Source of the DNA: Octopus sinensis
Taxonomy: Eukaryota
Direction: 5' to 3'
Assembly: GCF_006345805.1 (NCBI RefSeq)
Contig: NC_042998.1
Span: forward strand, 32,178,001-32,242,000
DNA: 64,000 nt
The position numbers and the translations under genes are program-made. Shown piece by piece: positions 431 to 46,380 of the stretch; positions within the stretch are counted from its first letter, which is position 1; the number at the start of each line of letters is the position of its first letter. The notes below the pieces were generated by a model, which made no database searches, had not been told where the DNA came from, and worked only from the letters and a program-made list of their open reading frames with translations.

Positions 431-521
431 ACCTGAAGATTGACTGTAACCATAATTCGAATTATTAATTGAATTTAACTTATTGTTATTCGAATTGGTA
501 CAGCCATGAAACGATCGTAGT
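431..521 (+). ncRNA. Hammerhead ribozyme-like motif with long stem II, in a degenerate PLE-like terminus (about 1-795)
   Basis: CTGAAGA (433-439), then imperfect long stem (tgactgta..aattcgaat / attcgaatt..tacagcca), then GAAA-CGATCG(palindrome)-TA. Stem I is only about 2 bp (ac/gt). Confidence 0.55.
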
Positions 522-828
522 ATTTTACTCTTTATCTTTTATTAAACTTTTGATACTTTTGATATTTATATAATAAAAATAAAAAAATTAATATATAAAT
601 AAATAAATTAATAAATAAAATAATATATAAATATAAAAATATACATATATATATATATATTTGTATGTATATATTTAAAATTTATAAGTTTAAATTATTT
701 GAATTTTAACTTTTATATTTTAAAATAAATTTTATGTATTGGCTTATGCTTTTCACTGTTTGATTTGCCTAATAGTGGCTTTATCTCTAATTTAATATAT
801 ACATACACACACACACCACACACACAAA

Positions 829-1655
829 CATGATGTGGTGAATAAATTGTTCTCTAAACTACACAAAAATGAAAATATCACTGACATTTCATTTTCACAG
901 ATATATTTACCAAAATTACATAAAAATATCTTCAAATACTAAAGAGTAATTTATTCAATAAACTCACCATTGCCTTCCACCACAGCCTCCAGATGACTTT
1001 GGAATCTCCTGCAACTCTTCTGGACTCTCTCCTTGTTTAAGTTGGCGAATGCTGCAATAGTTCTTGCCTTCAGTTCATCTTTGGTGTTACCAAGAATTTT
1101 GCTGGTCTCTCGCTCAACTGCGCCCCACACATAATAATCAAGGGGGTTGATGTCTGGAGAGCAAGGTGGCTAGATGTTAGGGGTGATGTGGTTGCAGAAA
1201 TTGTCTGACAGTCATGACTGGGTTCTTCTGCTTGTGTGGCATGGTGCAGAGCCCTGTTCCCAGACATAGGTTCTTCCAGCAACCACCTTCTTGACCCAGG
1301 GCATTACTACCTACTCAAGGCATTTGATGTAGTCCTACCTATTGAGTTTGAGGCATTGTGGGAGGATGAATGAAGGCATAACGTCGCCATCAATAGAGAT
1401 CACTCCAAACCCCATGATGTTGACTGGATGTTTGATTTTTATCACTCTCGGTAAATGTCCTCATATTGACACTCAAACACTCAGAAATTTTCGTATTGAA
1501 GTTTCCGGCGCGAATGCTAAGCAGCTCAGCATGTCGTTTCCAAATTTCTGGCAGAGAGTATTGCGTCATGGTATTGTTTGTTTCTCACAGACGGTGCCCA
1601 ACTGACCAACTATACTGTGTAGTCGACAAACTTACAAACAAACAATGCCCATGCG
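829..1655 (-). mobile_element. Internally deleted Tc1/mariner DD37D (maT-type) transposon
   Basis: Minus strand 1569->951 translates, with stops and shifts, to MTQYSLPEIWKRH... then KHPVNIMGFGVISIDG...YVWEQGSAPCHTSRRTQS*LSDNF...PPCSPDINPLDYYVWGAVERE...LEAVVEGNGEFIE*. There are 37 residues between the (mutated) second D position and the third D. The middle of the ORF is missing. Confidence 0.8.
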
Positions 1656-1664
1656 CGAAATAAA

Positions 1665-1835
1665 AAAATATAATATATTTTTTCTCTCCTTGTTTTTTTT
1701 CTGTGTCCCTTTCTGTAGAAGAGCGTAAGCTCGAAACGTAAAAGACTTTTTCTATTCCTGAGCGTTATAGTAACACATCTGTTTGTTTTGTACACCACCT
1801 GTCTTCGTCTCTTGTTTTTTTCGTGAACTCTCCCT
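1665..1835 (+). mobile_element. Short PLE pLTR-like repeat with HHR (core CUGUAGA at 1713)
   Basis: cttt-CTGTAGA-a-gagc/gtaa/gctc-GAAA-CG-TA-aaag at 1709-1744. Related copy at 30800-30965. Confidence 0.65.
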
Positions 1836-1840
1836 ATATA

Positions 1841-3154
1841 CGAAAGCCGTTCAATAAGTAATGCCCCTGACCCACTTCCTATAGCAGTAGAGCAACGAAA
1901 CTTGGCACAGTTATTAGTCTTTTTCTACATAGGAATCACCCAGAGTTACGCATTTCTCCCATTGTTTGATGCAGCTCTGGAGACCGTTTTTGTAGAAGAA
2001 CCCAGCTTGGTCCTCCAACCACGACGTGACTTCAGAAATCAAGGCTGCATCATCTGGGAAACGCTTTCCTTTCAAAAACAACTTCATAACTGAGAAGAGG
2101 TGAAAATCAGAGGGTGCAAGATCAGGAAAGTAGGGGGATGGGGGAGGAGTTCATAGCCATACGCCTGTGCTTCTGATCTGGCGACAAGCGAGTTATGGAC
2201 CGGAGCGTTGTCCTGCAGGAGGAGGATGCCTTTGCTGATCTTGCCCCGCCTCTTGATTTTGATAACTTCTCTTAATTTCTTCAAAAGTGAAGCATAATAG
2301 GCTCCTGCAATTTTGGTACCCTTTGCCAGGAAATCTGTCATCACTACTCCGTCCTGGTCCCAGAAGACTGTGAGCATGACCTTGCCAGCAGAGGGCTGCA
2401 CACTTGCCTTCTTTGGAGGGGGTGAGTCACGGTGCTTCCACTGCATTGACTGGGCTTTGGTCTCTGGATCATCGTGATGGACCCAGGTTTCATCCTGTGT
2501 AATCAGTCTTTTGAAAAATTTTGACTCATCTTCTTGGCACATCTCCAAATTCACCCTCGAGCACTCGACGCGTTCTTGCTTCTGGAAAGGCGTGAGCAAC
2601 CTGGGAATCCATCTGGCAGACATCTTTTCATTATGCAAATGGTCATGAATGATAGTTTCCACAGACCCGGTACTAATCTTGACCTCATGGGCTATTTGGC
2701 GAATAATTGTGCGTCGATCTTCCAAAATGGCAGCCTCAACTTGACGGACAGATGCCTCATCAATGGCAGAAGGGGCGACCAGATCTGGGAGCTGTTTCCA
2801 CAGAGTTCCGACCATGTTTGAATTCACGATGCCAGCGTTTTACAAGGTCATATGATGGGGCATCATCACCATAAATTACTTTCATTTCATCAAAAGTCTC
2901 CCGTGGTGTGCGTCCTTTCAAATACAAAAACCGGATCACTGCTCGACACTCAACAGGCTCCATTTCACACTTGACTCGGTTCAAACACCTGTAAATCAGA
3001 AACAACAATTAATTCAGAGCTGTAATTTTCCACTCAATCTATATCTGTAATTTGCCACTTATTCTATAGAGATATAAATGATTGCACATGCAAAATTTCA
3101 GCTAGATCAAACAACTGCAAGTGGGTCAGAGGCATTACTTATTGAACGTCCCTC

Positions 3155-3155
<1 letters not shown>
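1841..3155 (-). mobile_element. Full-length mariner (DD34D) transposon with TA target duplication
   Basis: TIRs cgaaagccgttcaataagtaatgcccctgacccactt (1841-) and aagtgggtcagaggcattacttattgaacgtccctcg (-3155), TA on both sides, 1315 bp. Confidence 0.95.
1914..2963 (-). pseudogene. Mariner transposase, two frameshifts (near 2770 and 2130)
   Basis: MEPVECRAVIRFL...RSGRP / ...ARWIPRLL...ITQDETWVHH...QDNAPVH...HPP / YFPDLAPSDFHLFS...WEKCVTLGDSYVEKD*. WVPHEL-like and YSPDL-like motifs, D(34)D spacing. Confidence 0.93.
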
Positions 3156-3157
<2 letters not shown>

Positions 3158-3203
<46 letters not shown>

Positions 3204-3239
3204 ATATAATATATATATATTATATATATTATATATATT

Positions 3240-3282
<43 letters not shown>

Positions 3283-3338
3283 ATATTATATATATTATAT
3301 ATATATATATACTATATATATATATATATATATATATA

Positions 3339-3383
<45 letters not shown>

Positions 3384-3394
3384 ATATATATATA
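3158..3394. repeat. (TA)n microsatellite
   Basis: Direct reading. Confidence 0.98.
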
Positions 3395-3733
3395 TGTTTA
3401 AGGGTGGAAAGGAACACACGAGTTGATATATATGAAAAAACAAGTCAAAATTAGAAAATGCTAAGATGATTTATAGTGAATCTTTCAGTACCGGTTCGGT
3501 CATTTTGAGACCTTTTCAACTGTAACGATTAAATAATTAAATTTAGAAAAATTAGAAGAAAAGTTTTTTTAAAAGAATATTTCTGTAGTAGTGTTCAGAT
3601 ATAAGTAGCATTCTGCCTTTCTCTGACTCCCTTGTTTGCAGTGCAAACAAGGGAGTCAGAGAAAGGCAGAATGCTACTTACATCTGAACACTACTACAGA
3701 AATATTCTTTTAAAAAAACTTTTCTTCTAATTT
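3395..3733 (-). mobile_element. PLE terminal repeat with fold-back palindrome (3549-3733) and damaged HHR (3486-3522)
   Basis: 92-bp arms with 1 mismatch centred on G3641. Minus-strand cag-TTGAAAA-ggtc..gacc-GAA-CCGG-TA-ctg (one A short). 3395-3640 resembles the 3' end of the GIY-YIG element at 24383-24650. Confidence 0.8.
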
Positions 3734-4686
3734 GAGATGTTTCGGGGGGGAAAAGGTTTTTTATATGGTTGGGGGAGGTTGTGTCCTGTTAGGAGGGGGT
3801 TTGGAGAGTATGTGTATTTGAGGTGCGGTTTGGAATGGTGTTTATGGGGTACAGTGGAAGTCTGTGTTGTGGGTACTTTTATGAATGGGTTTTTGGATTT
3901 ATGGTTTAATATGAATTGTGTTTCATAGTTGAGGAAGAAATCTTTGTTGTTTTCCCAGCGTTTAAGGGAGGTTCGTTCTTCCTTTTCACATTCATCTTTC
4001 CATAGTTTAATAACAAGTTCGAGGGGCTGTTCGTTGGTGTGTGAGGTTAGTTCTAGAAGTATCTCATCGTCTATTTTTGTGTATTTTTGTTCGTGGTTTT
4101 GTGCTCTGAGTTTTAGAAGTTCTACTTCGGTTTTCATTTTTTCCAATGTTAGTTTTTCTCTTAGGGAGCGTTGTTTTTCAGGTTCGTCTGGGATGTGTTT
4201 GATTTGGAATTTTCGGGGTAGTATGATAGGGGAGGAGTTTAACCATTTGTCGTAAATTTCAGCTTTGTTTTGGTTTTTGAGCATGTTCCAGAAGAGAAGT
4301 TTTCTGTTGTGTAGTTTCTTAGTCCAAGTAGTGATGATCTGGTTTTTAATGCGTTGTGCTGGGGTTGAAGTGTGTTCCTTCTGTGTGTTGAGTGGTGTCT
4401 GAATTGGTAAGTAGAGTTTTCAGTGTAGTGTTGATTTCATTTAGGTTTACATCTATCTTATCCGAAAGTAGAGTTTTCAGTGTAGTGTTGATTTCGTTTA
4501 GGTTTACATCAATTTTATCCGAAAGTTGTTGATGATGGTTGTTTTCTGAGTTGTCCCGGGATTGATGGAGAAGTTCGTCAATTTTTTTGGAGAATGTAAG
4601 TAGATGTGTATTGAGTACTTTGAGTTCTTTAGAATGGTCTTATTGGTGACTGTCTCTGTAAGAGTGCTCTTGTTTTTCGGAGGCAT
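3727..4686 (-). pseudogene. Unrecognised K/E/L-rich, probably helical ORF, frameshifted at its 5' end and cut by the palindrome
   Basis: Open frame about 4420->3727 (…WTKKLHNRKLLFWNMLKNQNKAEIYDKWL…LPRKFQ…LWKDECEKEE…W). Upstream MPPKNK start at 4686. 57-bp tandem duplication at about 4410-4523. Confidence 0.6.
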
Positions 4687-4855
4687 TCTGAATCACACGT
4701 GTGGTAGAGGGTACAGATCAATAAATGGTGGGGTTGTGTTGACCGCACGTGGAGAAATGATAAGTAAGGAAAAATTTTTTTTAAAAATGCAGAATGCTCA
4801 AATGAAAGAAAATTTTAATAAAATGAGAAATTGATAAAATAAATAAATATATATT

Positions 4856-4896
4856 TATTCAACCGGTTTTCGTCATTGTATGACTTGTCAAGAATA
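4856..4896 (-). ncRNA. HHR motif, U3-A8 core variant
   Basis: Minus strand: tattc-TTGACAA-gtca/tacaa/tgac-GAAA-ACCGG-TT-gaata. Stem III palindrome AACCGGTT. Confidence 0.65.
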
Positions 4897-5044
4897 TTTA
4901 TGTTTTAAGAAGTTTTTTTTTAAATTAGAAAGGGGAAAAAAAGAAAATTGCACTGTTTTTTGTAAAAGAATAATGATAAAAATGTACAAAAATTAAAAAA
5001 TAAGTTCTCCGATACATTGTGAGTTCGTTGTGTATCTTGAGTTT

Positions 5045-5075
<31 letters not shown>

Positions 5076-5088
5076 TATATATATGCAT

Positions 5089-5131
<43 letters not shown>

Positions 5132-6234
5132 AGGATTTGTTTATCATGAGACTACGTTAAAAGACACTTGCTCTACTTGCCGCGCAGTAAGATCGAACTG
5201 GGTACCGAATACTCTCGAAGTAAACTTTTCTTCACAACTATACAGACATTTTATAGAAATGATATCGAACTAATATATTTCAGAACTAAAATACATGATT
5301 AGTAATCAGTCGAATTCTTCAGACGTAATCGCCTGTCTGAAAAGTGAAGTAGTATTCTACACACAGCCTTATAGTCCGACATAAAATATGTCACAATGCC
5401 AAAGAAAGATTCAACGTCGTGCAACTATACAGAAAAAAGCAAAGAGCAACGATAGATAATTAGGGTTAATGTAGTTTTTGGCAATGACAGTTACTGTAAC
5501 TTTCATAATTGTAACAGTTATATTTCACTAAAATCTTAATGGATGCAGGAACGAATGGGCTGGTAAAAGATCAGTACAATGTATCGTCAATAAATAAAAA
5601 AAAAACGAAAAATGCAGACATGGTGAATAAAGTAACGTGATTGCAGAACAGACTTACATGGAAGAGAGCAGAAACAAAATGTCTAACAGCAATATTAGCT
5701 GAGTGAAGGGGATCGAACGACTACATAAAAAGAAAAGAAACTACTGGAAAAAGAAAAATGTTAAATTAAGTTAAAACATATATTTTGGAAGTCACGACAT
5801 GACCTGAGAGCAGCAGTAGATTTCTTGTAAAAATGAAAACCAGTTTAGTATTATGAGATGAAAAGATAGGGGAATTCTACTAGTTTAATGAAACTGAATA
5901 AAAGTACAGAATTTACATATTATCAACATTTTGTTGTTTTTTAAGTGACGGATATTATCAGAAGAAATTTTTGATGACAGATCTTCCATGTATTATAAAA
6001 GGAAGCGAGTGCCAGAACCTTATCTTAGGTCATGTTGATTTTAGCAAAAGAGGCCTTGGAGATCTAATCTTAAGTTGTCATCAATATTGTAGCTCGTCAA
6101 AGACTAATGGGTGCATAATCTCCTGCGTGCAGCGGTATATTGATTAGAGGAAAGGAGAGGATAACGAATAATGATAGATGAAAAGAAGTGAGAAAGCACC
6201 GGAAGGTAGAAGCTTGAAGACAAGTGAGAATGGA

Positions 6235-6546
6235 GAAGCAGAAGAAGAAGAAGAAAAGAAGAAGAAGAAGAAGAAGGAGAAGAAGAAGAAGAAGAAGAAG
6301 AGAGAAAAAGAAGAAGAAGAAGAAGAAGAAGAAGAAGGAGAAGAAGAAGAGAAGAAGAAGAAGAAGAAGAAGAAGAAGAAGAAGAAGAAGAAGAAGAAGA
6401 AGGAGAAGAGAAGAAGAAAAAGAAGAAGAAGAAGAAGAGAAGAAGGAGGAGAAGAAGAAAAGAAGGAGAAGAAAAAGAAGAAGAAGAAGAAGAGAGAAGA
6501 AGAAGGAGAAGAAGAAGAAGAAGAAGAAGAAGAAGGAGAAGAAGAA

Positions 6547-6578
<32 letters not shown>

Positions 6579-6640
6579 AGAAGAAAAAGAAGAAGAAGAA
6601 GAGAAGAAGAAGAAGAAGGAGAAGAGAAGAAGAAGAAGAA

Positions 6641-6687
<47 letters not shown>

Positions 6688-6747
6688 AGAAGAAGAAGAA
6701 GAAGGAGAAGAAGAAGAAGAAGAAGAAGAAGAGAAGAAGAAGAAGAG
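6235..6747. repeat. (GAA)n purine tract
   Basis: Direct reading. Explains the poly-E/K/R/F/S/L ORFs. Confidence 0.98.
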
Positions 6748-7387: not shown

Positions 7388-7445
7388 TTTATTGTTAGCA
7401 AACGGTAGATTGCTGGCCCCAATGCCTTACGGTATTATGGTATGA

Positions 7446-7680: not shown

Positions 7681-7789
7681 TTGTTAAAAATTTTCAAAAT
7701 GCAGCAAGGCATCGTTTAATAAGGGGAATGCTCTGAGCAATGGGTTTAATAAATGCACACGCCATGTATATATATATTATATATATATA

Positions 7790-7835
<46 letters not shown>

Positions 7836-7837
<2 letters not shown>

Positions 7838-8042
7838 AAATGTGACCGCGTGTGTGCCGTTGGCGATTTATTTTTCCTGTCTTCCCTTCTCTGGATCTTT
7901 CCTTCTCCTATGTTTCCGACGAAGAGCTCCACTCGAAACGTTAAATCCTCCTTCTTTCCTTCTTTCCTGAGCGTCCAATAATACTATATTTGTTCCACGT
8001 CCTCGCGTTGTTGTGTTTTTTTTGTGCTTTCTTGTTTGGATC

Positions 8043-8108
<66 letters not shown>

Positions 8109-8340
8109 ATATCTATATATATATATATATCAAAATGTGACCGCGTGTGTACCGTTGGCGATTTATTTTTCCTGTCTTCCCTTCTCTGGATCTTTCCTTC
8201 TCCTATGTTTCCGACGAAGAGCTCCACTCGAAACGTTAAATCCACCTTCTTTCCTTCTTTCCTGAGCGTCCAATAATACTATATTTGTTCCACGTCCTCG
8301 CGTTGTTGTGTTTTTTTTGTGCTTTCTTGTTTGGATCAAC
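7836..8340 (+). mobile_element. Tandem pair of about 210-bp HHR-bearing repeats separated by (TA)n
   Basis: Units 7836-8045 and 8131-8340 are near-identical. ttt-CCGACGA-a-gag..ctc-GAAA-CG-TT-aaa at 7913-7945 and 8208-8240, period 295 bp. Confidence 0.8.
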
Positions 8341-8346
8341 TATATA

Positions 8347-8403
<57 letters not shown>

Positions 8404-8895
8404 CATACATACATACATACATACTTACATATGTGTTTTGTTCGTGTGTGTGTATTGAAATGTGTTTACAAATTTATGTGCCCATTTAAGCACGCTTCGA
8501 TATTAATTTCAAGGAAAGTGGTTTCCAAGTAACATATCTTGAAGTCCTAAAGGTTGGGAGATTAAAGGGGTTAAAACAGTTTTTAATTGTATAAAATAAC
8601 TCATAAACGGTTTGGAATATAAATAAATATGAACAAACTTTAAAGAACAAATGAGCCGGAATATGATGACAAAACGTAGATACGAGATTGTAATTTATTT
8701 TAATGGTGCTGGAAGATGAAAGGAAATGTGAATGCCAAAGCGGTTTCCACTGAGAGCATAAAGTGACACAAGTAAATTAGAAAAGAATAATTTTCCTGCC
8801 TATTATGTGCTTCTGAGATTTTGATCCTTTATAATAATGGTGTACAGCTTAAGCACAACGAGAAATTTGAACATCGTTTCAATAAAATAAGTACC

Positions 8896-10547: not shown

Positions 10548-10682
10548 CAGTTCTATATTTAAGAGGTGAGGATTTATGTACATTATTTACGTTATTTACA
10601 TTTAACACAACTTTTCGGCTGATATACCCTCCAGCCTTCTCGAGGTGTCTTGGGGGAAATTTCGCACTTGGGTTCTCATTCC

Positions 10683-10741
<59 letters not shown>

Positions 10742-10889
10742 TCGTAAAATACCTTAGGAATGAGAACCCAGATTCGAAATTTCCCCAAGACACCTGATGA
10801 AGGCTGGAGGGTATATCAGCCGAAAAGTTGTGTTAACAACAAACAAGATGAGGACAAATATCCGTCAAATGTAAATAATGTAGAAATGT
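10548..10889. mobile_element. PLE-type cassette: inverted pLTR + (TAA)n + direct pLTR with HHR, 13-bp TSD
   Basis: TSD ATAAGCAATGATA at 10535-10547 and 10890-10902. HHR gacac-CTGATGA-a-ggctg..cagcc-GAAA-AG-TT-gtgtt at 10789-10834. Confidence 0.85.
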
Positions 10890-11824: not shown

Positions 11825-11893
<69 letters not shown>

Positions 11894-11911
11894 TGTTGTA
11901 ATTTTTATGAA

Positions 11912-12495
11912 GGCGGCGATCTGGCCGAAACGTTAGCACGCCGGGCGAAATGCTTAGCGGTATCTCGTCTGCCGTTACGTTCTGAGTTCAAATTCCGCCG
12001 AGGTCGACTTTGCCTTCCATCATTTAGTGGTCGATAAATTAAGTAGCAGTTACGCACTGGGGTCGATATAATGGACTTAATCCGTTTGTCTGTCCTTCTT
12101 TGTCCCTTCTGTGTTTAGCCCCTTGTGGGTAGTAAAGAAATAGGTATCTCGTCTGCCGTTAAGTTCTGAGATCAAATTCCGCCGAGGTCGACTTTGCCTT
12201 TCATCCTTTCGGGGTGGATTAAATTAGTACCAGTTACGCACTGGGGTCGATATAATCGACTTAATCCGTTTGTCTATCCTTGTTTGTCCCTTCTGTGTTT
12301 AGACCCTTGAGGGTAGTAAAGAAATAGGTATTTCGCCCGTTGCTACGTTCTGAGTTCAAATTCTGCCGAGGTCGACTTTGTGTTTTATCTTTTCGGGGTC
12401 AATAAAGTAAGTACCAGTGAAACAGTGGGGTCGATGAAATCGATTGACCCCCTTCTCCAAATTTTCAGGCCTCGTACCAATAGTAGAAAGGATTA
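11912..12495 (+). mobile_element. SINE family 1 trimer (A, A, B tails)
   Basis: One head, then units restarting at ggtat(c/t)tcg. (TTA)n tract at 11826-11889 upstream. Confidence 0.88.
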
Positions 12496-12982: not shown

Positions 12983-13398
12983 GTTGTGGATGGTAGTAGT
13001 GATTGAATTCTTGAGGCATCCCTTCAGGGCACTTGACCATTAAGCATCCAACTACTATCATGGCACTCCCACATTCTTCTCCTCCTATTTCTTCTTCTCC
13101 TTCTTCTTCTTCTTCTTCTTCTTCTTCTTCTTCTTCTCTTTCTTCTTCCCTGCCAAGGATTCACAACGACCTCGAACCCACAAGAGTAAACAAGAAAGAC
13201 AGAGACAGACAGAAACAAGGAAAATGCCCCTTGTATTTGAATACTATGCAAATATTCTTTTAAAAAACTTTGCTTTTAATTTTTCCAAAATTTAATTGTT
13301 TTCCATACTTACAGTCGAAAAAGTCTCAATGACTGAAACCGGTACTGAGATGTTTTTATATAAAATTATCTTATATTTTCTCCCTTGACTTTTTTTTC

Positions 13399-13452: not shown

Positions 13453-13790
13453 AAACAATTGCAGCGTGGAAGGTGTTTATAAGCCATTTAAGAAACACAC
13501 AAGCCGTTCGATTCACTTCAACATTTAAGTTTAATTTGTCAAAATATTTTCGTCGCTAAAATCCGCGACCTGTTCACTGACAAAGTCCCTGCAGCACGGA
13601 CTTTGTCAGTGAACAGGTCGCGGATTTTAGCGACGAAAATATTTTGACAAATTAAACTAAATGTTGAAGTGAATCGAACGGCTTTTGTGTGTTTCTTAAA
13701 TGGCTTATAAACACCTTCCACGCTGCAATTGTTTTCGTTTCAGCACACGATCTCAGATCAAATTACTTGCTATGCGAGTACATCTCCGTA
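13453..13790. mobile_element. PLE-type palindromic pLTR (about 140-bp arms, 13453-13734) with an HHR on each strand
   Basis: Centre about 13593. Plus-strand HHR at 13602-13651: tttgtca-GTGAACA-g-gtcgc..gcgac-GAAA-ATAT-TT-tgacaaa. Mirror copy on minus at 13535-13584. Flanked by (TA)n. Confidence 0.85.
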
Positions 13791-14006
13791 ATATATATAT
13801 ATACATACATACATACTACTATTTATGTAAATGTATATATGTCTGTGTGTGTCTCTGTGTGTTGTGAATCTGTGAGTATATAAGTATATGTATGTATACA
13901 TATATATAAATAAATGTATTATATATGTATCATATGCATATATATATATATATAATATATTATATATATATATATATATTATTATATATATATATATATA
14001 ATATAT

Positions 14007-24382: not shown

Positions 24383-25560
24383 AGAAGGTTGAAAAGGAAC
24401 CAACGAGTTGATAAATATATAGGAAAAAAGTCAAGGTAGAAAATGCTAAAATAATTTTGTAAAAAACATTTCGGTACCGGTTTCAGTCATTGAGACTTTT
24501 TCAACTGTAAGTATGAAAAACAATAACATTTTGGAAAAGTTAAAGGAAAAGTGTTTTAAAAGAATATTTGTATAGTGTTCAAATACAAAGGGCATTTTCC
24601 TTGTTTCTGCCTGTCTCTATCTCTCTTGTTTACTCTTGGGGGTTCGAGGTCATTGTGAATTCTAGGTAGGGAAGAAGAAGAAGAAGAAGAAGAAGGAGAA
24701 GGAGGAGGAGAAGAAGAAGAAGAAAAGAAGAAGAAGAAGAAGAAGAAGAAGAAGAAGAAGAAGAAGAAGAAGAAAGCCATGATAGTAGTAGGATGTTAAA
24801 TAGTCAAGTACCCTGAATGTGATTCGTTGTGGATGGTAGTAGGGATTGAATTCTTGAGACATCTCTTTTGACTTTATTGTATATAATATTTGCGTAGGTT
24901 TTATTCTAAACAGCAATAGTGGTAAAGTTAGGAAGGGCGTGGCAGAAAAGAAGAAGACGAAGAAGAAGAAGGAGAAAGAGAAGGGTGAATAAGAAGGAAT
25001 GTAGGTAGTATGATAGTAGTAGGGTGTTAGATGGTCAAGTGACCTAAAAGTAGCTCGTTATGGATTATAGCAATGATTGGGACTGTTGTTTAATGAATTC
25101 TTGCGCATCTCTTGAGTGTATCATTTTTAATATTTGCGTGTGTGTTTGTATTATTCTAAGGCCGTGTTGGATATGTCGTTTGTTGTAGATGCGTTCAAAA
25201 GTGGTCTGTATTTTGTAATAAAGAAAGTATCTTTACTAATTCGTTGGCTGCAGGTTGTATCGTCTATGAATTGGTAGAGAGGAAACATTCTGAAGCTTGG
25301 ATTTTTGTTATTGGCGCAAATGTCAATGTGTTGGCTGAATGCTATTTTTCTGTTTTGGGGAATTATGATCTGGGATCTGTGCAGAGCCATTCTTTTACGT
25401 AGACTGTTTTTTGTTTGGCCTATGTATTACTCTTGACACCCAGAGCAGGTTAGTGTGTATATCAGGTTCTCTGAAGCACATGTGAAGTTGCTTTTCACTT
25501 TGAAACGTTGTCCCCGTTTGAAGGAGAACTCTGATTCCTCACTTAACTTGACGCATATCG
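24383..25560 (-). mobile_element. 5'-truncated Penelope-like element: GIY-YIG endonuclease remnant, repeated 3' UTR, HHR
   Basis: 25560->25151: FKVKSNFTCASENLIYTLTCSGCQE*YIGQTKNSLRKRMALHRSQI…FSQHI..C…KYRPLLN. About 230-bp direct repeat (24780/25010). HHR cag-TTGAAAA-agtc..gact-GAAA-CCGG-TA-ccg at 24472-24507. Confidence 0.9.
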
Positions 25561-30846: not shown

Positions 30847-30882
30847 CTTTCTGTTGAAGAGCGTAGGCTCGAAACGTAAAAG
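30847..30882 (+). ncRNA. HHR motif (core CUGUUGA) in pLTR-like repeat
   Basis: cttt-CTGTTGA-a-gagc/gtag/gctc-GAAA-CG-TA-aaag. Same family as 1709. Confidence 0.6.
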
Positions 30883-32960: not shown

Positions 32961-33431
32961 AGCAACTGTTTATTGCAGTTTGATAAAAACTTGGACTTCT
33001 TATTACCTGTCATATATGCATGGTTTCGTTATATATCATAATACACATTATATTTATTCTCCAAATTCTGCCGAGGTTGGCTTTGCTTTTCATCCTTTCG
33101 GCGGGGGGGGGGGGATAAAATAAGTATCAGTTCAACACGGGGGCAGGAGTGATGTAATCGACATGTTCCGTCCCTGAAGTTTCTGGCTTGTGTATATATA
33201 TAAGGATAAGATCGTTATTTAAATATCGAACTTATCATGTGGCCAGCATGGAAATAAAACACTTGAAAGGTAATAATTATTATTATTAAAATTATAATTT
33301 AGGGTATCTATAAGAGATACCACCACGCTTGAAATAGCAGCGAAAACTTGACTCTAAAACCACATTAAAAGTTCATACAGCACCAGGAGAGAAGACAAAA
33401 TAAATAAACTAGCAAAAAAATTACTGGATAA

Positions 33432-33487
33432 TTCCAGATTCCGGATTTCTGGTTTTGCATAAGAAATGCTTTGCCTCTTCAGTGGAA
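33432..33487 (-). ncRNA. HHR motif (core CUGAAGA) in a (TA)n-adjacent repeat
   Basis: Minus: ttcca-CTGAAGA-g..gcat/ttctt/atgc..-GAAA-TCCGGA-ATC-tggaa. Stem II is imperfect. Confidence 0.55.
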
Positions 33488-33509
33488 TATACACAGCACA
33501 TAAATACAA

Positions 33510-33593
<84 letters not shown>

Positions 33594-34220: not shown

Positions 34221-34818
34221 TATTTCTTTACTACCCACAAGGGGCTAAACACAGAGAGGACAAACAAGGACAGACAAACGGATTAAGTCGATTACATCGA
34301 CCGCAGTGTGTAACTGGTACTTATTTAATCGACCCCTAAAGGGTAAAAGGCAAAGTCGACCTCGGCGGAATTTGAACTCAGAACGTAGCGGTTGACGAAA
34401 TACCTATTTCTTTATTACCCACAAGGGGCTAAACACAAAGAGGACAAACAAGGAGAGACAAACGGATTAAGTCGATTACATCGACCCAGTGCGTAACTGG
34501 TACTTATTTAATCGATCCCGAAAGAATGAAAGGCAAAATCGACCTCGGCAGAATTTGAACTCAGAACGTAGCGGCAGACGAAATACCTATTTCTTTACTA
34601 CCCACAAGGGGCTAAACACAGAGAGGATAAACAAGGACAGACAAACGGAATAAGTCGATTATATCGACGCCAGTGCGTAACTGGTACTTATTTAATCGAC
34701 CTCGAAAGGATAAAGTGCAAAGTCGACCTCGGCAGAATTTGAACTCAGAACGTAACGGCACACGAAATGCTGCTCAGCATTTCGCCCGGCGTGCTAACGC
34801 TTCTGCCAGTTCGCCGCC
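34221..34818 (-). mobile_element. SINE family 1 trimer with one TSD pair
   Basis: TATTTGCTTTAACTA at 34202-34216 and 34822-34836. Confidence 0.92.
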
Positions 34819-36498
34819 TTTTATTTGCTTTAACTAATTTTGAGAAACTACTAATGTTTTTATACATATTTATATTTACTATTTGCCCATGCATATTTAG
34901 AATGTAGTCTTATACTACTTAGACTGTCGTTTTAACAAGGTTATAAATGAATCTGTAGATTAGGCGAGTTGCATTATTTATTAGGACTACTTCTTTGCAA
35001 ATGGGGAATTCTTTCACGTTTTAACCACACAGCTGTAAAATATTGATAGTTTCTATTCTACCAGGTTATAAGAAATTACAATTGAATAATAACCTAATGC
35101 TAGAAGAATTGTAAAACTTTGAATTTTGCAGTATCAATAGTTTCAGCAGATGTTTAAGACTTTTAACTCTATATTGACCATTCAACCCTGAAATACAACG
35201 AATTAACTCAGGCTTTGATCTCCGGGCTTTGAAAGTTTGATCTTTGGATCAGTCTTTTATCTTTTCAACAATTTGGCTACTGTATTTTCACAGGTATTAT
35301 TAATTTAATATTAATTCATTGGTATAATGTTCGATATAATATTGAATATGGTACCAAAACTATGTGGTCATGGCAAAGTCAGAGAATCGAAATATATGTG
35401 ATAATAGAATGAATGGCGCAAGTATTGATCTTATTCACTATGAGACACGGGGAAAAAAAGTTGAAATGGAAATTATATTGAATCTATGTCTCTGATGATT
35501 CGGGTAGCAATAAAACCTCAAAAAGAAAAGCGAGAGAAGAGTTGCAAATGCAATTCATTGTGAACGAATAAAAGATTTAAAAGATTTTCCTGCTATACAA
35601 CTGAATAAAAACTGCTATAATAGGACTGGTTTGGCAGTTCTTGTGTCGGTTAACTTACAAGCATTTCAGAGGAGTATTTTACAAGACGTTTTACAGTCGA
35701 GAGATATAATAAACTAGAAGAGGTTTAAATGAAGCTAAATCTAATGCATAGACATCATAAATAGTAGACATGGGTATTGGAGTATGTTTAAATATCTTGA
35801 AACTGGAGCCGTAATAAACTCCAATTATTTCGAAAACAAAATAATATAAAACTGACTGATAGACAATTGGTTCAGTTAACAAATTATGAAAAACAACTGA
35901 GAATATTGAAAACCTGTAAAAGTAGCATATAATACACAAAATTGGTACTAAACACGTTGCTTTGTAGTAAAGATCAGATGTGAACACTATACTGTATAAT
36001 CAGCACAAGTTATTCAAAGCATCTGCCGCTACGTTCTGAGTTCAAATTCCGCCGAGGTCGACTTTGCCTTTCATCCTTTCGAGGTCGATTAAATAAGTAC
36101 CAGTTACGCATTGGGGTCGATGTAATCGACTTAATCCCTTTGTCTGTCCTTGTTTGTCCCCTCTGTGTGTAGTCCCTTGTGGGCAGTAAATAAATAGGTA
36201 TTCGAAGGATGCCGGGAACTCTTTTAGAGACCGAAAGAAAATCAATGTTTCACATATTGTGAATGTTATTGCACTTAATTCTAAAGTATTCCTGAGTAGA
36301 CCTATGGTCAAAGGTATTCCAATGATAACCATAATATATGTTTGCTTCTATCTGATATTATCTAATGTGTCCTTTTTTTAAAGACAGGGTTGGAATTAAG
36401 AAACACATGACTGAAGATAGTTGAGGCTTCTTCTTTGACTCTTGCATTGGACGTGAGTATAAAATGAAGCCCGTGATTGACGTAGCGTGTGGTTTCTT

Positions 36499-40631: not shown

Positions 40632-40847
40632 ACTCTTTTACTCTTTTACTTGTTTCAGTCATTTGACTGCGGCCATGCTGGAGCACCGCCTTTAGTCCAG
40701 CAAATCGACCCCGAGACTTATTCTTTGTAAGCCCAGTACTTATTCTATCGGTCTCTTTTGCCGAACCGCTAAGTGACGGGGACGTAAACACACCAGCACC
40801 GGTTGTCAAGCAATGCTAGGGGGACAAACACAGACACACAAACACAT

Positions 40848-40878
<31 letters not shown>

Positions 40879-41040
40879 CATATATAGGGCAGGCTTCTTT
40901 CAGTTTCCGTCTACCAAATCCACTCACAAGGCTTTGGTCGGCCCGGGACTATAGCAGAAGACACTTGCCCAAGATGCCACGCAGTGGGACTGAACCCGGA
41001 ACCATGTGGTTGGTTAGCAAGCTACTTACCACACAGCCAC
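40632..41040 (-). mobile_element. tRNA-derived SINE family 2 with LINE-like 3' tail
   Basis: Head gtggctgtgtggtaagtagcttgc..ggttcagtcc. Tail ggcggtgctccagcatggccgcagtcaaatgactgaaac+(aaaagagt)n. 3' fragment also at 45553-45770. Confidence 0.88.
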
Positions 41041-41178
41041 ATAAACATAAATTTAAATATATATATTTATATACACACACATACACACACACACAAATAT
41101 AGGGATATAAGCATATATACATACATACGTTAATACATACACACACACACACACCACACACACACACACACACATATT

Positions 41179-41409
41179 TATTTCTTTATTGCCCACAGAC
41201 GGCTAAACATAGAAGGGACAAACAAGGACAGACAAAGGAATGAAGTCGATTACATCGACCCCAGTGCGTAACTGGTACTTAGTTAATCGACCCCGAAAGG
41301 ATGAAAGGCAAAGTCGACCCCATCGGAGGTTGAACTCAGAACGTAACGGCAGACGAAATGCCGCTAAGCATTAGGCCCGACGTGCTAACGATTCTGCCAG
41401 CTCGCCGCC
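41179..41409 (-). mobile_element. SINE family 1 monomer
   Basis: Head, core and tail A. Confidence 0.85.
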
Positions 41410-41449
41410 CTGACACACCCACCCTCTCACACACGCGCACGCAAATATA

Positions 41450-41785
41450 GGCGCATGGCTCGGTCGTTAGAGTGTCGGACTCACAATCATGAGGTTTGTG
41501 AGTTCGATTCCTGGACCAGGCAGTGTGTTGTATTCTTAAGCAAGACACTTTATCTCATGTTGCTCCAGTTCACTCATTGTAGAAATGAGTTGTAACGTCA
41601 CTGGTACCCAGCTCTATCGGCATTTGCCTTTGCCTTTGATAACATCAGTGGCATGGAGAAGGGAGGTTGGTATGCATGGGCGACTGGTGGTGTTCCATAA
41701 ACAACCTTGCCCGGACTTGTGCCTCGGAGAAGAAATTTCTAGGTGCATTTCATGATCATACATGACCGAAAAGGTTCTTTACCCT
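41450..41785 (+). mobile_element. tRNA-derived SINE family 4
   Basis: ggcgcatggctcggtcgttag..gagttcgattcc head. Related copy at 57680-58010 (minus). Confidence 0.75.
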
Positions 41786-41846
41786 TTGTATACACACGCA
41801 CACACAAACACAAACACACACATACTCATATGGTCATATATCAGGA

Positions 41847-42235
41847 CTAGCAGTATCGCCCGGTGTTGCTCGGGTTTGTAAGGGAAATAACTATAAAGCA
41901 TTTTTAGAGAGTTATAGCCAAAAAATAGCAAAAAATGCATTAAAAATGGAAAAGGAATTATGTTTTTTTTTTTTAAATCGTTGACTCATCGTAGACATTT
42001 TTAGAGAGTTACTTCCCTTTATTTAAAAAATATGCATTAAAATGGAAAAAATGATGGTAAATTATTTTAAAAATCGTAGACTCATCGTAGACGCGCGCTA
42101 ATACCCAGAAGGGCTCGATATGAATCACGACTATAAGATACCCGGTTTTGGTTAAACTGCATCGCAAAATGTGGGAGTAGTTAGGAATCTAAATCGGAGT
42201 AGACAGACACACAACCTTTCTTTTATATATAAAGA
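41847..42235 (-). mobile_element. Non-autonomous Helitron
   Basis: Minus: A|TC… hairpin cccgagcaacaccggg … CTAG|T. Has an internal duplication relative to the 15633 copy. Confidence 0.85.
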
Positions 42236-43192
42236 TATCAAGCGATTCTGCTTATAGGTTTGTTCATTTGTGTTTGAACTCGACTTAAACAGCCAGAAGC
42301 TTCCTCTACAATGGGGAAATTTTCTTGAGCCTTTAGCTGAGAGAGCTATTTCAGAGTCAGGTAAGAAAGTAAGTTCTGTTCAAATATCGAAGTAAAATAA
42401 AATAAAGTGAAAGCTGAAACGAAATGACAAAGTCAAAGAAGTGATTCAACTTTGCGTATAATAAAAAATAAAATTAATGTTCACCCAATCCAGAACTGTG
42501 TTAAAGTGAAATCGTGCGTCGAGCAAACCGAGTGAAAGTTTTATAATAGTACAATACACAAAAATAATAATTTTTATATTGAAACACGCAAATTACTCGA
42601 GAGAAACTACCAGAAATAATTCTTTAGGGAGGTGACATTAAGTCTTATAGTTTGCAAAAACGGCAATAAAGAGGTTTAGCTAATGAAAAATTTCTTAGCA
42701 GCAATACCATGAATATTCCCATGGGGAATTATTTCTTCCTCTAGAATTCCATTCATTATTTTCTTTGGGTTATCTGCGGTCAGTCTGAAGTAATTAAGCA
42801 ATTAGGTAATAATGGAAATTATTTATTTCTTAGTTAATATCCGTATTATCATTTTATTCTAATGCATCACATAATTTGTATTAATGCGGGTGTTTTATAT
42901 ATTTTAATTGCAATCAGATTTTTCGGATTTTGCCAATGTTCTGAATATGAAACTAGGCCAAATTCTGTTCCGTTTCTCTTCTATGAGTTTAGTGTTTTTT
43001 TTTTTTTGTTTATTAATTTGTATTCAGCAATCAATATACTAGACGGAATCCCTCTAGGCTCTACATCAACTAAAATAATTAGCTGGAAAAAATCCAATCA
43101 AGGGCACTGTTTTGTATGCCCCTATTCAACATAATATCTCTTTTTAGTCTTCTATTTTTACATAATTGATTCACTTTGTGTGTGTGTGTGTT

Positions 43193-43233
<41 letters not shown>

Positions 43234-43280
43234 AATATTCTTCTCTTTGATCAATCACTTTTAAAACATCACTAGTTTGT

Positions 43281-43448
43281 ACACTTCTATATTTAAAAGA
43301 TGAGGAATTATGTACATTATTTACATTACTTACAATTGATGGATATTTGCCCTCACCTTGTTTGCTGTTAACACAACGTTTCGGCTGATATACCCTCCAT
43401 CAAGAGTCTTGGGGAAATTTCGAACCTGGGTTCGATTCCAAGCAGTGA

Positions 43449-43495
<47 letters not shown>

Positions 43496-43855
43496 GGGTC
43501 CCACCTGCAAGGTCATGTGCTGTTTATCTTGATATGAGATCACCATGCCGTGCACATATGGTTGTGATGCATATGCCTGATGTACCCTTATCAGACGTGT
43601 AGTCATGATGGGTATACTGGGCTTTGTATATTTTACCCCAGTTTCATTTTGATGTCATGCACTGCTCTCTCGATAATAATAACATTGAAACATACCTTAG
43701 GAATGAGAACCCAGGTTCTAAACTTCCCCCAAGACACCTGATGAAGGCTTGGAGGGTATATCAGCCGAAACGTTGTATTAACAACAAACAAGATGAGGAC
43801 AATTATCCGTCAAATGTAAATAATGTACATTATTCCTCATCTCTTGAATATAGAA

Positions 43856-43892
<37 letters not shown>

Positions 43893-44205
43893 TGTATTAG
43901 ACATTCACTAGTACAACACAAAAAAAACCCAAATATATGGCACAGAACTTCCAACCTGTTGTCTCTTGAGGTCTCTGGGTGAGACTTGGAGCCAACTTGT
44001 ACAGACATAAAGCAAAAGTCAAACAATGAATAATAATAATAATAATAACAACAACATCGTAAGATACCTTAGGAATGAGAACACAGGTTCGAAATTTCTC
44101 CAAGATACCTGATGAAGGCTGGAGGGTATATCGACTGAAACATTGTGTTAACAACAAACAAGATGAGGACAAATATCTGTCAAATGTAAATAATGTAAAT
44201 AATGT
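43281..44205. mobile_element. Composite PLE-type cassette (inverted pLTR, two direct HHR pLTRs, (TAA)n-flanked inserts) with 13-bp TSD
   Basis: TSD ATCACTAGTTTGT at 43268-43280 and 44206-44218. CTGATGA cores at 43738 and 44109. Same family as 10548-10889. Confidence 0.85.
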
Positions 44206-44349
44206 ATCACTAGTTTGTGTAAAAGTAAAATATGAAATTTTACAATACGTAAACAATTTTAGCAATTTTCGTAAAGCATCTTCTCGAATATACTTATCTC
44301 TTCCTTTGGATTTTCAAAATAATCAATGGAATTAAGCTTTAATTTAGCT

Positions 44350-44760
44350 GTCACTGTGACCATAAATCTAATTTATTATACAAATGTGTAGCCAATAGTT
44401 ATATCAAACTTTAGGTCGTTATCAATGAACTGAAATTTTTTATACAGCCACTATAGAGTGGTGCATGTGCGATGCTTCAGAAAGAAAGCTAAAAATAGTC
44501 TTAAGAAAGATATTCTTTTTTAAATATTATAATTGATTGGAACAAACGGCAGTTTGGTTTATGAACAAGCAGGTGTTGTAAAAGTTTGCTTAAAATCAGT
44601 TTGGCAAGATTTAAATTCATGAAAAATGCCCTTTGGTGAAAGTGACATTGATGAATGTGTAGGAAGAGAGGTTGTAAGAACTGAATATTGTGTACAAACT
44701 GCCAACAGTGGAACTACAAAAGGTAATTAATATTGTTGCTGCACCAGATGTTTTTGTTTC
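44350..44760 (+). mobile_element. Possible decayed pogo/Tigger transposase C-terminus
   Basis: Faint motifs (NLL.…VISNF; FLKY; GVVKVCLKSVWQ). Heavily disrupted. Confidence 0.3.
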
Positions 44761-44855
44761 GCAGAGAGTACGAAAACGACGGAAGAACAACATGTCTATC
44801 ACTTTCTAGCTGACTACTTTACTCATTGTATTACATACACAGCAGCCAATACTAT

Positions 44856-44888
<33 letters not shown>

Positions 44889-44889
44889 A

Positions 44890-45487
44890 GGCGGCGAGCT
44901 GGCAGAAACGTTAGCACGCCGGGCGAAATGCTTAGCGGTATTTCGTCTGCGTTACGTTGTGAGTTCAAATTCCGCCGAGGTCGACTTTGCCTTTCATCCT
45001 TTCGGGGTCGATAAATTAAGTACCAGTTACGCACTGGGGTCGATGTAATCGACTTAATACCTATGTCTGTCCTTGTTTGTCCCCTCTGTGTTTAGCCCCT
45101 TGTGGGTAATAAAGAAATAGGTATTTCGTCTGCCGTTACGTTGTGAGTTCAAATTCCGCCGAGGTTGACTTTGCCTTTCATCCTTTCGGGGTCGATAAAT
45201 TAAGTACCAGTTCCGCACTGGGGTCGATGTAATTGACTTAATACCTATGTCTGTCCTTGTTTGTCCCCTCTAAGTTTAGCCCCTTGTGGGTAATAAAGAA
45301 ATATGTATTTCGTCTGCCGCTACGATCTGAGTTCAAATTCCGCCGAGGTCAACTTTGCTTTTCATCCTTTCGGGGTCGATAAATTAAGTACCAGTTTCGC
45401 ACTGGGGTCGATGTAATCGACTTAATCCGTTTGTCTGTCCTTGTTTGTCCCTTCTATGTTTGGCCCCTTGTGGGCAATAAAGAAATA
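44890..45487 (+). mobile_element. SINE family 1 trimer in a (CT)n tract
   Basis: One head plus three tail-A units. Confidence 0.9.
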
Positions 45488-45490
45488 TAT

Positions 45491-45538
<48 letters not shown>

Positions 45539-45786
45539 CCTGCATGTCTATATTCTTTTATTCTTTTACTTGTTTCAGTCATTTGACTGCGGTCAGCTGG
45601 AGCACAGCCTTACGAGTTTTAGTCGAACAAATCGACCCCAGGACTTATTTTGTTAAAGCCTAGTACTTATTCTATCGGCCCCTTTTTGCCTAACCGACAA
45701 ATTACGGGGACGTAGACACACCAACACCGGTTGTCAAGCGATGATAGGGGACAAGCACAGACAAAAGACACACATATATAGATATA

Positions 45787-46097
45787 TCACCGTGATCACC
45801 GTGACCGACCAGGCTATCAGATGTTGCTACACATCGCTGGTCACAATGTGCTTCGCATTGTTTTAGCCGTCAAATGACGCTACCCCGCTGGCTGAGCGAG
45901 CAGGCCAACAGAAGAAAGGGTGAGAGAATGTTGTGGTGAAAGAGTACAACAGTGATCGCCACCACACCCTGCCGGAGCCTCGTGGAGCTTTTTAAGTGCT
46001 TTCGCTCAATAAACACTCACAATGCCCAGTCTGAGAATCGAAACCGCGATCCTGCGACTGCGAGTTCGCTGCCCTAACAACTGGGCCATTGTGCCTC

Positions 46098-46098
<1 letters not shown>
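45787..46098 (-). mobile_element. tRNA-derived SINE family 5
   Basis: Minus head ggaggcacaatggcccagttgttagggcagcg..ggtttcgattctc. Confidence 0.7.
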
Positions 46099-46136
<38 letters not shown>

Positions 46137-46137
46137 T

Positions 46138-46177
<40 letters not shown>

Positions 46178-46178
<1 letters not shown>

Positions 46179-46380
46179 GACCTCGTGTGTACCGTTGGCG
46201 ATTTTTTTTCCTCTGTCTTCCCTTCTCTGGATCTTTCCTTCTCCTATGTTTCCGACGAAGAGCTCCGCTCGAAACGTTAAACCCTCCTTCTTTCCTTCTT
46301 TCCTGAGCGTCCAATAATATTATATTTGTTCCACGTCCTCGAGTTGTTGTGTTTTTTGTGCTTTCTTGTTTGGATTAACT
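46178..46380 (+). mobile_element. Solo copy of the CCGACGA-HHR repeat between (TA)n tracts
   Basis: HHR at 46249-46281 with 4-bp stem II gagc/gctc. Matches 7836-8045. Confidence 0.8.

What the first reader, a model, noticed from the sequence alone, without database searches (positions are those of the whole stretch)
431..46281. Panel of at least 14 minimal hammerhead motifs from several repeat families, with covarying 3-8 core pair
Seen: motifs of the form stemI-[7-nt core]-stemII-GAAA-short palindrome-UH-stemI'. Cores are CTGAAGA (433; 33482 minus), CTGATGA (10794, 43738, 44109), CTGTAGA/CTGTTGA (1713, 30851), CCGACGA (7916, 8211, 46252), TTGAAAA/TCGAAAA (3519 minus, 24504 minus, 13315), TTGACAA (4891 minus) and GTGAACA (13609 and its mirror). 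Positions 3 and 8 always pair (C-G, U-A, G-C). Stem III is palindromic in nearly all copies (ACGT, ACCGGT, AAATATTT, CGATCG, TCCGGA). Known: C3-G8 is a tertiary Watson-Crick pair in HHRs, and PLE terminal repeats carry minimal type I HHRs thought to cleave as dimers. Inference: this lineage has an unusually diverse radiation of non-canonical HHRs (G3-C8, U3-A8, U4C, A6U) that CUGANGA-only searches would miss.
Basis: partly seen in the sequence, partly recalled or inferred. Interest (0 to 1): 0.8.

Follow-up and report, generated by a model that had tools for sequence, protein, structure and literature searches.

The report
Swapped-core hammerheads in Penelope retroelements
These short motifs are hammerhead-shaped RNA ends of several families of Penelope-like jumping genes, and one very abundant family carries a swapped pair of core letters that I found described only as a laboratory mutant; they likely cut RNA weakly, but cutting is untested.

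Summary
All 16 listed cores lie at the stated coordinates and pair at 3-8. Eight pass a strict hammerhead descriptor, against 0.05 expected by chance. They are truncated copies of eight repeat families. Four families are clearly ends (pLTRs) of Penelope-like elements (PLEs) with RT plus GIY-YIG; two links are weak and two were not shown.

The best result lies outside the window. Three sister PLE families (54-60% protein identity) carry G3-C8 (5,148 exact matches), U3-A8 (4,498) and C3-G8 (3,476) at the same site. Their stem changes are compensatory and their flanks do not align. The G3-C8 family has a 1,042-codon open frame.

U3-A8 in PLEs, U4C in a viroid and high within-genome diversity are published, and G3-C8 is a known lab rescue. 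I found no natural G3-C8 or U6 in six searches, but three key papers were unavailable. This scan noted G3-C8 before, twice, on other DNA. Uncompensated U6, C4 and C9 cores are also abundant, which argues for weak or optional cleavage. Activity is untested. Verdict: new variant of a known kind.

The parts
431..521 (+). Family a motif: core CUGAAGA (C3-G8), long helix II closed by U.U, 8-nt palindrome, 2-bp stem I, H17 at 519. Repeat spans window 1-805. Hydra-clade-like PLE (link from one locus).
1709..1744 (+). Family b motif: core CUGUAGA (U6), intact, H17 at 1740. pLTR of a Neptune-type PLE.
3486..3522 (-). Family c motif (second subfamily): U3-A8; one A of GAAA deleted in this copy.
3731..5047 (-). 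Family d PLE fragment: pLTR plus about 1.1 kb of the ORF start, 97% identical to the full-length copy L181.
4856..4896 (-). Family d motif: core UUGACAA (U3-A8), extra A after GAA as a family trait, H17 at 4861 in my preferred parse.
7912..7946 (+). Family e motif: core CCGACGA (C4); first unit of a 295-bp tandem duplication.
8207..8241 (+). Family e motif: C4; second unit of the tandem.
10789..10834 (+). Family f motif: canonical CUGAUGA, stem III damaged. A damaged inverted copy lies at 10602-10675. PLE ORF link not shown.
13312..13347 (+). Family c motif: U3-A8, with a private U4C change; H17 at 13344.
13454..13791 (.). Family g insertion: two head-to-head pLTR remnants in (TA)n; the minus arm ends about 87 nt after H17, the plus arm about 146 nt (tail at one end).
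13535..13584 (-). Family g motif (mirror): G3-C8, core GUGAACA, 7-bp stem I, H17 at 13542.
13602..13651 (+). Family g motif: G3-C8, extra G after A9, 5-bp stem II, stem III AAUAUU, H17 at 13644; predicted cut between 13644 and 13645.
24472..24507 (-). Family c motif: U3-A8, stem I mismatch in this copy; 3' end of a PLE fragment reaching 25559.
25184..25555 (-). PLE linker and GIY-YIG fragment, same strand, about 680 nt upstream of the 24504 motif.
   Evidence: E 4e-21 and 3e-13 to L181 segments
30847..30882 (+). Family b motif: core CUGUUGA (U6), intact.
33431..33488 (-). Family h motif: canonical core, 6-bp stem I, extra A before G12, stem II damaged in this copy. PLE ORF link not shown.
43734..43778 (+). 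Family f motif: canonical core, one insertion in stem II and one mismatch in stem I. A damaged inverted copy lies at 43323-43433.
44105..44148 (+). Family f motif: canonical core, stems II and III damaged.
46248..46282 (+). Family e motif: C4, intact.

Best explanation
The motifs are minimal type I hammerhead sequences in the terminal repeats of several Penelope-like retroelement families, left here as short truncated insertions, and they likely act as weak, probably protein-assisted or paired self-cleaving ribozymes that would trim the element's RNA. Shown: sequence, fold pattern, copy numbers, position downstream of RT-GIY-YIG genes (families g, d, c, b), and compensatory change at 3-8 and in the stems between sister families. 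Inferred: selection in the active source elements has kept the active-site geometry, so G3-C8 and U3-A8 cores would cut (about 0.65-0.7), while the uncompensated U6, C4 and C9 cores would cut poorly or not at all and were tolerated. Inferred: most window copies are dead inserts, and the head-to-head pair at 13454-13791 would fold as one long hairpin rather than as a ribozyme.
For: Above chance. Genome-wide exact pattern counts with reversed-pattern controls: G3-C8 family 5,148 vs 0; b/e 29,018 vs 0; non-G3 sister skeleton 4,498 vs 0; third sister 3,476 vs 3. 23 of 30 best endonuclease loci have the g motif 0.9-1.3 kb downstream on the same strand, and one holds a 1,042-codon open frame; the EN part hits Pfam GIY-YIG above cut-off. 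Family d flanks a full element as direct repeats 4,603 bp apart; c and b lie downstream of PLE ORFs. In 13 copies of three sister families, 78 of 78 cells pair; 3-8 is GC 6, UA 5, CG 2; slid controls pair 13-56%. Core plus stem II is 14-18 of 22 identical between sisters while 120-nt flanks score z 0.5-2.0. PLE insertion marks: 75 of 83 g copies end at two sites; 14 of 30 have an inverted partial copy; (TA)4 follows 21 of 30 against 21% background. Lab data: C3G/G8C partly rescues a PLE hammerhead that cuts only with its protein (PMC11167929) and is the one rescuing swap in a full double-mutant scan (PMC9901934).
Against: No cleavage data. Uncompensated cores are very successful: of the first 100 b/e matches 48 have U6 and 32 have C4; of the first 100 third-sister matches 71 have C9; such changes are low-activity in the lab. 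Cleavage was not needed for insertion in vitro, and no RNA ends were seen at the site, in the one PLE studied. Stem III duplexes are weak in the key clade: g -0.2, s +2.2, x +1.4 kcal/mol, and no predicted minimum-energy dimer reproduced a full double hammerhead. The covariation rests on three lineages; chance matching of three pairs alone is 1 in 6, and one of the four covariation measures (pairs changed on both sides) did not beat shuffles, 134 of 500. The full g ORF had no Pfam hit at E 0.01; its RT is read from recalled motifs and weak matches. No ORF link for f or h; links for e and a rest on one locus each.
Confidence: 0.72

Rival explanations
1. The fold is kept for a non-catalytic job (binding the PLE protein, shaping the template) or is decaying; the variant families are pseudo-ribozymes and cleavage is dispensable.
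For: U6, C4 and C9 lineages reached thousands of copies. Hammerhead mutants did not affect insertion in vitro. Naiad PLEs thrive without canonical hammerheads (PMC8557442).
Against: The 3-8 pair forms in the active conformation, yet it is kept as three different WC pairs while flanks diverge. N7, the free position, varies among U6 subfamilies (A, T, C, G) while G8 stays in 47 of 48.
Confidence: 0.2
2. Some families (e, f, h) are non-autonomous retrozyme-like units copied by PLE proteins rather than pLTR fragments of autonomous elements.
For: No ORF link for f and h; two e copies form a 295-bp tandem; animal retrozymes are proposed to derive from pLTRs (bioRxiv 10.64898/2026.07.22.740005, abstract).
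Against: Copies are mostly solitary with variable 5' ends; an endonuclease remnant lies upstream of an e copy. It does not apply to g, b, c, d.
Confidence: 0.05
3. The head-to-head G3-C8 repeat is a MITE-like foldback DNA element and the hammerhead likeness is incidental.
For: Near-perfect inverted arms in the window and in many copies.
Against: The same motif ends RT-GIY-YIG elements; arms are unequal and variably truncated, as described for PLE inverted 5' copies.
Confidence: 0.02
4. Chance matches picked by a reader looking for hammerheads.
For: The most relaxed descriptor has real background: 3-6 hits per shuffled 800 kb against 19 observed.
Against: 8 vs 0.05 in the window; thousands of genomic copies vs 0-3 in controls.
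Confidence: 0.01

Closest known systems
[quoted passage not shown]
   Same: Short helix I, extra base after A9, palindromic helix III, many families per genome, mostly solitary or inverted copies, U3-A8 core in Schistosoma.
   Different: The representatives in the part of their alignment that I saw have only CUGA or UUGA cores. G3-C8, U6, C4 and C9 cores are family-level here.
Poseidon PAc hammerhead of Anolis (Frangieh et al. 2024, PMC11167929)
   Same: pLTR hammerhead, two discrete insertion ends, AT-rich targets; engineered C3G/G8C partly active.
   Different: There G3-C8 is a lab mutant; here it is the natural state of a family with 5,148 exact matches. The two g ends are about 58 nt apart.
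Natural hammerhead core variants (Perreault et al. 2011, PMC3088659)
   Same: U3-A8, a change at position 6 (A6C, low activity), U10.1-U11.1, and viroid U4C.
   Different: Described as rare; G3-C8, A6U and A9C are not named in the sections I read; here variants are fixed in high-copy retroelements.
PLE clades Neptune, Nematis and Hydra (Craig et al. 2021, PMC8557442)
   Same: b, c, d: DKG motif, cysteine linker, C-terminal GIY-YIG with CCHH. a: no CC pair inside the GIY-YIG core and flanking CxxC/CxH, as for Hydra. g, s, x: cysteine linker and CCHH.
   Different: Clade names are by motif only, with no reference sequences in a tree. 'Nematis-like' for g, s, x would be recalled, not tested.

Membership tests
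PLE minimal type I hammerhead | Type I topology: helix I closes the motif, helix II hairpin, GAAA, UH | tested here: met
   8 of 16 intact by strict descriptor; family forms intact for c, f and (with an extra A) d, h
PLE minimal type I hammerhead | Core CUGANGA, or the published UUGANAA | tested here: not met
   Met for a, f, h, c, d. Not met for g (GUGANCA), b (U6) and the C4 part of e; these are filed as variants that work like the family, not as canonical members
PLE minimal type I hammerhead | Watson-Crick pair at 3-8 | tested here: met
   16 of 16; GC, UA, CG in sister families
PLE minimal type I hammerhead | Palindromic helix III | tested here: met
   12 of 16 exact; not palindromic in the outside sister family x
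PLE minimal type I hammerhead | G10.1-C11.1 closing pair, often with one extra base after A9 | tested here: inconclusive
   Both present in b, e, g and intact f; c has A-U or G-C without extra base; a has U.U; h has an extra A before G12
PLE minimal type I hammerhead | Site-specific self-cleavage, as dimer or with helper protein | not testable with these tools
   Only assembled contigs were available; they cannot show RNA ends
Rfam hammerhead families | Match to a curated covariance model | tested here: not met
   No hammerhead family among 108 matches at E up to 5
Penelope-like element (EN+) | RT followed by C-terminal GIY-YIG in one frame, upstream of the motif | tested here: met
   g, b, d and c in broken copies; weak for e and a; not found for f, h
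Penelope-like element (EN+) | pLTRs as direct or inverted repeats, 5' truncation, tail at one end | tested here: met
   Direct repeats in L181; inverted copies and two end classes in g
Penelope-like element (EN+) | Placement in a named clade by RT phylogeny with references | not tested
   Only a 7-row tree of this genome's proteins, branching order open
Non-LTR retrozyme | Tandem non-coding units, each with a type I hammerhead | tested here: not met
   Only one two-unit tandem among 16 sites; g, b, c, d end coding elements
MITE / foldback DNA transposon | Fixed equal terminal inverted repeats, no RT parent | tested here: not met
   Unequal variable arms and an RT parent

The most novel reading that the evidence does not exclude
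Sister retroelements in one genome have walked the hammerhead active site through three of the four possible 3-8 pairs, including a natural G3-C8 ribozyme. They could do so because in the paired form one RNA supplies the core and the other the cut strand: a copy with a broken core is still cut by an intact sibling, while family-specific stems I and III keep pairing within a family. PLE ends would then be a natural, high-copy experiment on how a ribozyme crosses inactive intermediates.
Probability: 0.25. Interest if true: 0.78.

Novelty: new variant of a known kind. Interest (0 to 1): 0.55.

Why it matters
What PLE hammerheads do, and whether they are needed at all, is open. This genome offers matched natural controls: sister elements with G3-C8, U3-A8 and C3-G8 cores, and successful lineages with cores predicted to be weak (U6, C4, C9), at least one with a long open frame. 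Side-by-side assays would separate 'cleavage selected' from 'fold only'. It would be phylogenetic support for the third WC state of the 3-8 pair, so far seen by me only as an engineered rescue. It also shows that CUGANGA descriptors and Rfam miss tens of thousands of motifs in one genome, which matters for claims that some PLE clades lack hammerheads.

Tried and rejected
Rfam: no hammerhead hit. DNA search with the e motif found nothing because its words are too common; a pattern search then counted it. Expression: no RNA holder listed; contigs of four runs from four organism labels carry the g repeat but cannot show ends, strand or level; not used as evidence. No PLE ORF found next to f (8 copies, shared upstream at most 196 nt) or h (4 loci with about 2.3 kb upstream). 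The first 60 g loci, picked by DNA or pattern, showed no match to the d-family protein; the link came only after translating one inverted pair. Minimum-energy dimer folding did not recover double hammerheads. The protein tree did not resolve the order of g, s, x, so the ancestral pair is not established. A 12-family permutation test gave p 0.0002, but families are related and hand-picked, so I give it little weight. Term searches of the Perreault supplements were uninformative: the positive control was found only in an oligo table. Lunse 2017, Hammann 2012 and Przybilski and Hammann 2007 were not held. No family with A3-U8 was seen: 0 of the first 100 non-G3 matches and one damaged single copy; this was not a genome-wide test. 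I considered whether family a is a Naiad with an overlooked long hammerhead and rejected it: its GIY-YIG is C-terminal.
Full report
Setting. The window is G000:C2:32178001-32242000 of a 2.72-Gb animal genome. It is AT-rich, full of microsatellites and interspersed repeats. The commonest repeat resembles an octopus SINE; this label is recalled and was not tested.

1. Observation. All 16 cores are at the stated coordinates and all 16 are Watson-Crick at positions 3 and 8. A strict descriptor (stem I at least 3 bp, G5, A9, stem II at least 3 bp, GAAA, exact palindrome, H17; positions 3, 4, 6, 7, 8 free) gave 9 hits, 8 WC at 3-8, against means of 0.17 and 0.05 in 100 shuffles. After dropping 7 of 25 hits with AT-only stems, 11 of 18 had G5 and A9 and all 11 paired at 3-8; 5 of the 11 are outside the window; shuffles gave 0-2. 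A looser descriptor on 800 kb of samples gave 19 hits, 13 WC, against 3-6 hits and 0-3 WC in 6 shuffles. Eight of the 16 window copies are damaged or atypical, and stem III is an exact palindrome in 12 of 16. Rfam finds none of them.

2. What they are. The 16 sites fall into eight repeat families (a-h; b and e are related). Exact genome-wide pattern counts, with reversed-pattern controls: g (G3-C8) 5,148 vs 0; b plus e 29,018 vs 0. First-look candidates for the others: c 934, d 1,483, a 1,371, h 2,358; f was not counted. Copies are patchy: the b/e pattern occurs 3 times in the window but once in 800 kb of samples, where the genome mean predicts about 8.5; I have no explanation.

Links to Penelope-like elements. 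d: two direct repeats 4,603 bp apart flank a frameshifted RT-GIY-YIG gene, and the window holds its first 1.3 kb. c: RT/EN fragments lie upstream on the same strand in several loci and in the window at 25184-25555. b: a 492-codon frame with RT and GIY-YIG motifs ends about 870 nt upstream (Pfam RVT_1 and GIY-YIG hits below cut-off). g: the EN region hits GIY-YIG above cut-off; 23 of the 30 best EN loci carry the motif downstream within the fetched flank, and L281 has a 1,042-codon stop-to-stop frame ending about 920 nt before it. [quoted passage not shown] The window's mirror pair is such an insertion reduced to its pLTR.

Covariation. Searching with the g endonuclease found two sister families. 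s (54% identical) carries U3-A8; the non-G3 skeleton has 4,498 matches, nearly all s among the first 100. x (54% to g, 60% to s) carries C3-G8, 3,476 matches vs 3. In an alignment of 13 hand-chosen copies, 78 of 78 cells pair; 3-8 is GC 6, UA 5, CG 2; two stem II pairs change on both sides; slid controls pair 13-56%. Three measures beat all 500 shuffles; pairs changed on both sides did not (134 of 500), and further pair types fell below shuffles. Stem I next to the core also changes in register (TCA/TGA, CTA/TAG, CCA/TGG). Core plus stem II is 14-18 of 22 identical between sisters, while 120-nt flanks align no better than shuffles (z 0.5-2.0). These are three lineages, not 13 events, and their order is unresolved.

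Uncompensated cores. Among the first 100 b/e matches (counted by eye), 48 have U6, 32 have C4, 20 neither, none both; U6 copies show all four letters at N7 and keep G8 in 47 of 48. Among the first 100 x matches 71 have C9, 27 A9 and 2 U9. These are lineage-level states, not decay.

3. Mechanism. Shown: motif, position, copy number, covariation. From literature: PLE min-HHRs cut weakly and only as dimers or with an extended helix III (PMC4209133); one PLE hammerhead cuts only with its protein, C3G/G8C partly rescues it, and cutting was not needed for insertion in vitro (PMC11167929); in a double-mutant scan the G:C swap was the one rescue in the CUGA region and other changes were low-activity (PMC9901934). 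Inferred: source elements are selected for an active-site fold but need only low activity; G3-C8 and U3-A8 likely cut, U6, C4 and C9 likely cut poorly. Against a simple dimer model, the g, s and x stem III duplexes are weak (-0.2, +2.2, +1.4 kcal/mol) and folding did not recover double hammerheads; g has a 7-bp stem I that might compensate. For the novel case, each family's own stem I pairs at least as well as any cross pair in 10 of 10 rows, with ties for x and a and near-ties for b/e; this fits a family code but is also expected from plain divergence.

4. Known versus new. U3-A8 in PLEs, the extra base after A9, palindromic helix III and extreme within-genome variability are in PMC4209133. 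Natural U3-A8, A6C, U10.1-U11.1 and viroid U4C are in PMC3088659. Six searches aimed at natural G3-C8 or U6/C4 cores returned only engineered G3-C8. The library lacks most subscription papers, and Lunse 2017, Hammann 2012 and Przybilski and Hammann 2007 were not held, so the novelty claim is provisional. Two earlier notes of this scan describe G3-C8 motifs with an extra nucleotide behind PLE RTs in other genomes; I did not check them. None was on file for this genome.

What I read. PMC4209133: parts 1-2 of 4 of the text, supplement file 2 part 2 of 3 and a term search; file 1 could not be searched. PMC11167929: part 1 of 4 and passages. PMC8557442: passages; supplements not opened. PMC3088659: abstract, sections 8 and 9, passages, supplement term searches. 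PMC6765202: passages and section 11 part 2. PMC3884650, PMC8495972, PMC9901934: passages. bioRxiv 10.64898/2026.07.22.740005: part 1 of 5 and one passage; its supplements are closed. Hammerhead numbering and RT motif names are recalled.

5. Verdict. Real feature, known kind, new variants. The class and U3-A8 are known; a high-copy natural G3-C8 family with U3-A8 and C3-G8 sisters, plus thriving U6, C4 and C9 lineages, makes the question of PLE hammerhead function directly testable. Interest 0.55.

Noticed in passing
L289-L292; G000 genome-wide: Sister family x: a dominant subfamily has C at position 9, which would break the A9-G12 pair; A9 subfamilies coexist. Not in the window.
   Followed up: partly
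L059, L066, L069, L104, L135, L288; window 431-521: Several further families with a long helix II (40-70 nt) and an 8-nt palindromic stem III; short-loop descriptors would miss them. They may relate to the 'half-core' cases noted in PMC8557442.
   Followed up: no
L235:5000, L236:5046: Older, diverged motifs with core GUGACCA and the same stem II start: G3-C8 may be old in this lineage.
   Followed up: partly
L253:3614, L299:1433: Another U3-A8 family with a 6-bp stem I and a different stem III palindrome.
   Followed up: no
L274:3384; L194:4926: Single copies with A3-U8 (damaged g copy) and with C6 (b/e relative); probably decay.
   Followed up: no
window 2084-2839 minus: Mariner-type transposase fragment (Pfam Transposase_1, E 5e-23).
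   Followed up: partly
window 3591-3691: Near-perfect inverted repeat just upstream of the 3519 motif, likely the same inverted 5' copy seen in other PLE insertions.
   Followed up: no
window 7767-8419: 295-bp tandem of two C4 motifs with (TA)n spacers; a read-through RNA could hold both for pairing in cis.
   Followed up: no
window 58040-61400: About 3.3 kb of degenerate (TA)n.
   Followed up: no
window 63329-64000 minus: Open frame with a weak endonuclease-RT hit (E 0.002), probably a LINE fragment.
   Followed up: partly
window-wide, e.g. 11910-12443, 34221-34820, 44938-45488: Very abundant SINE-like repeat, often in 176-184-bp tandem units.
   Followed up: no
window versus 800 kb of samples: b/e exact matches: 3 in 64 kb here, 1 in 800 kb sampled, about 8.5 expected from the genome count; distribution looks patchy and is unexplained.
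   Followed up: partly
L190, L231, L311: The 3' untranslated regions of b, g and e contain long CA/CATA-rich simple repeats between the ORF and the motif.
   Followed up: no
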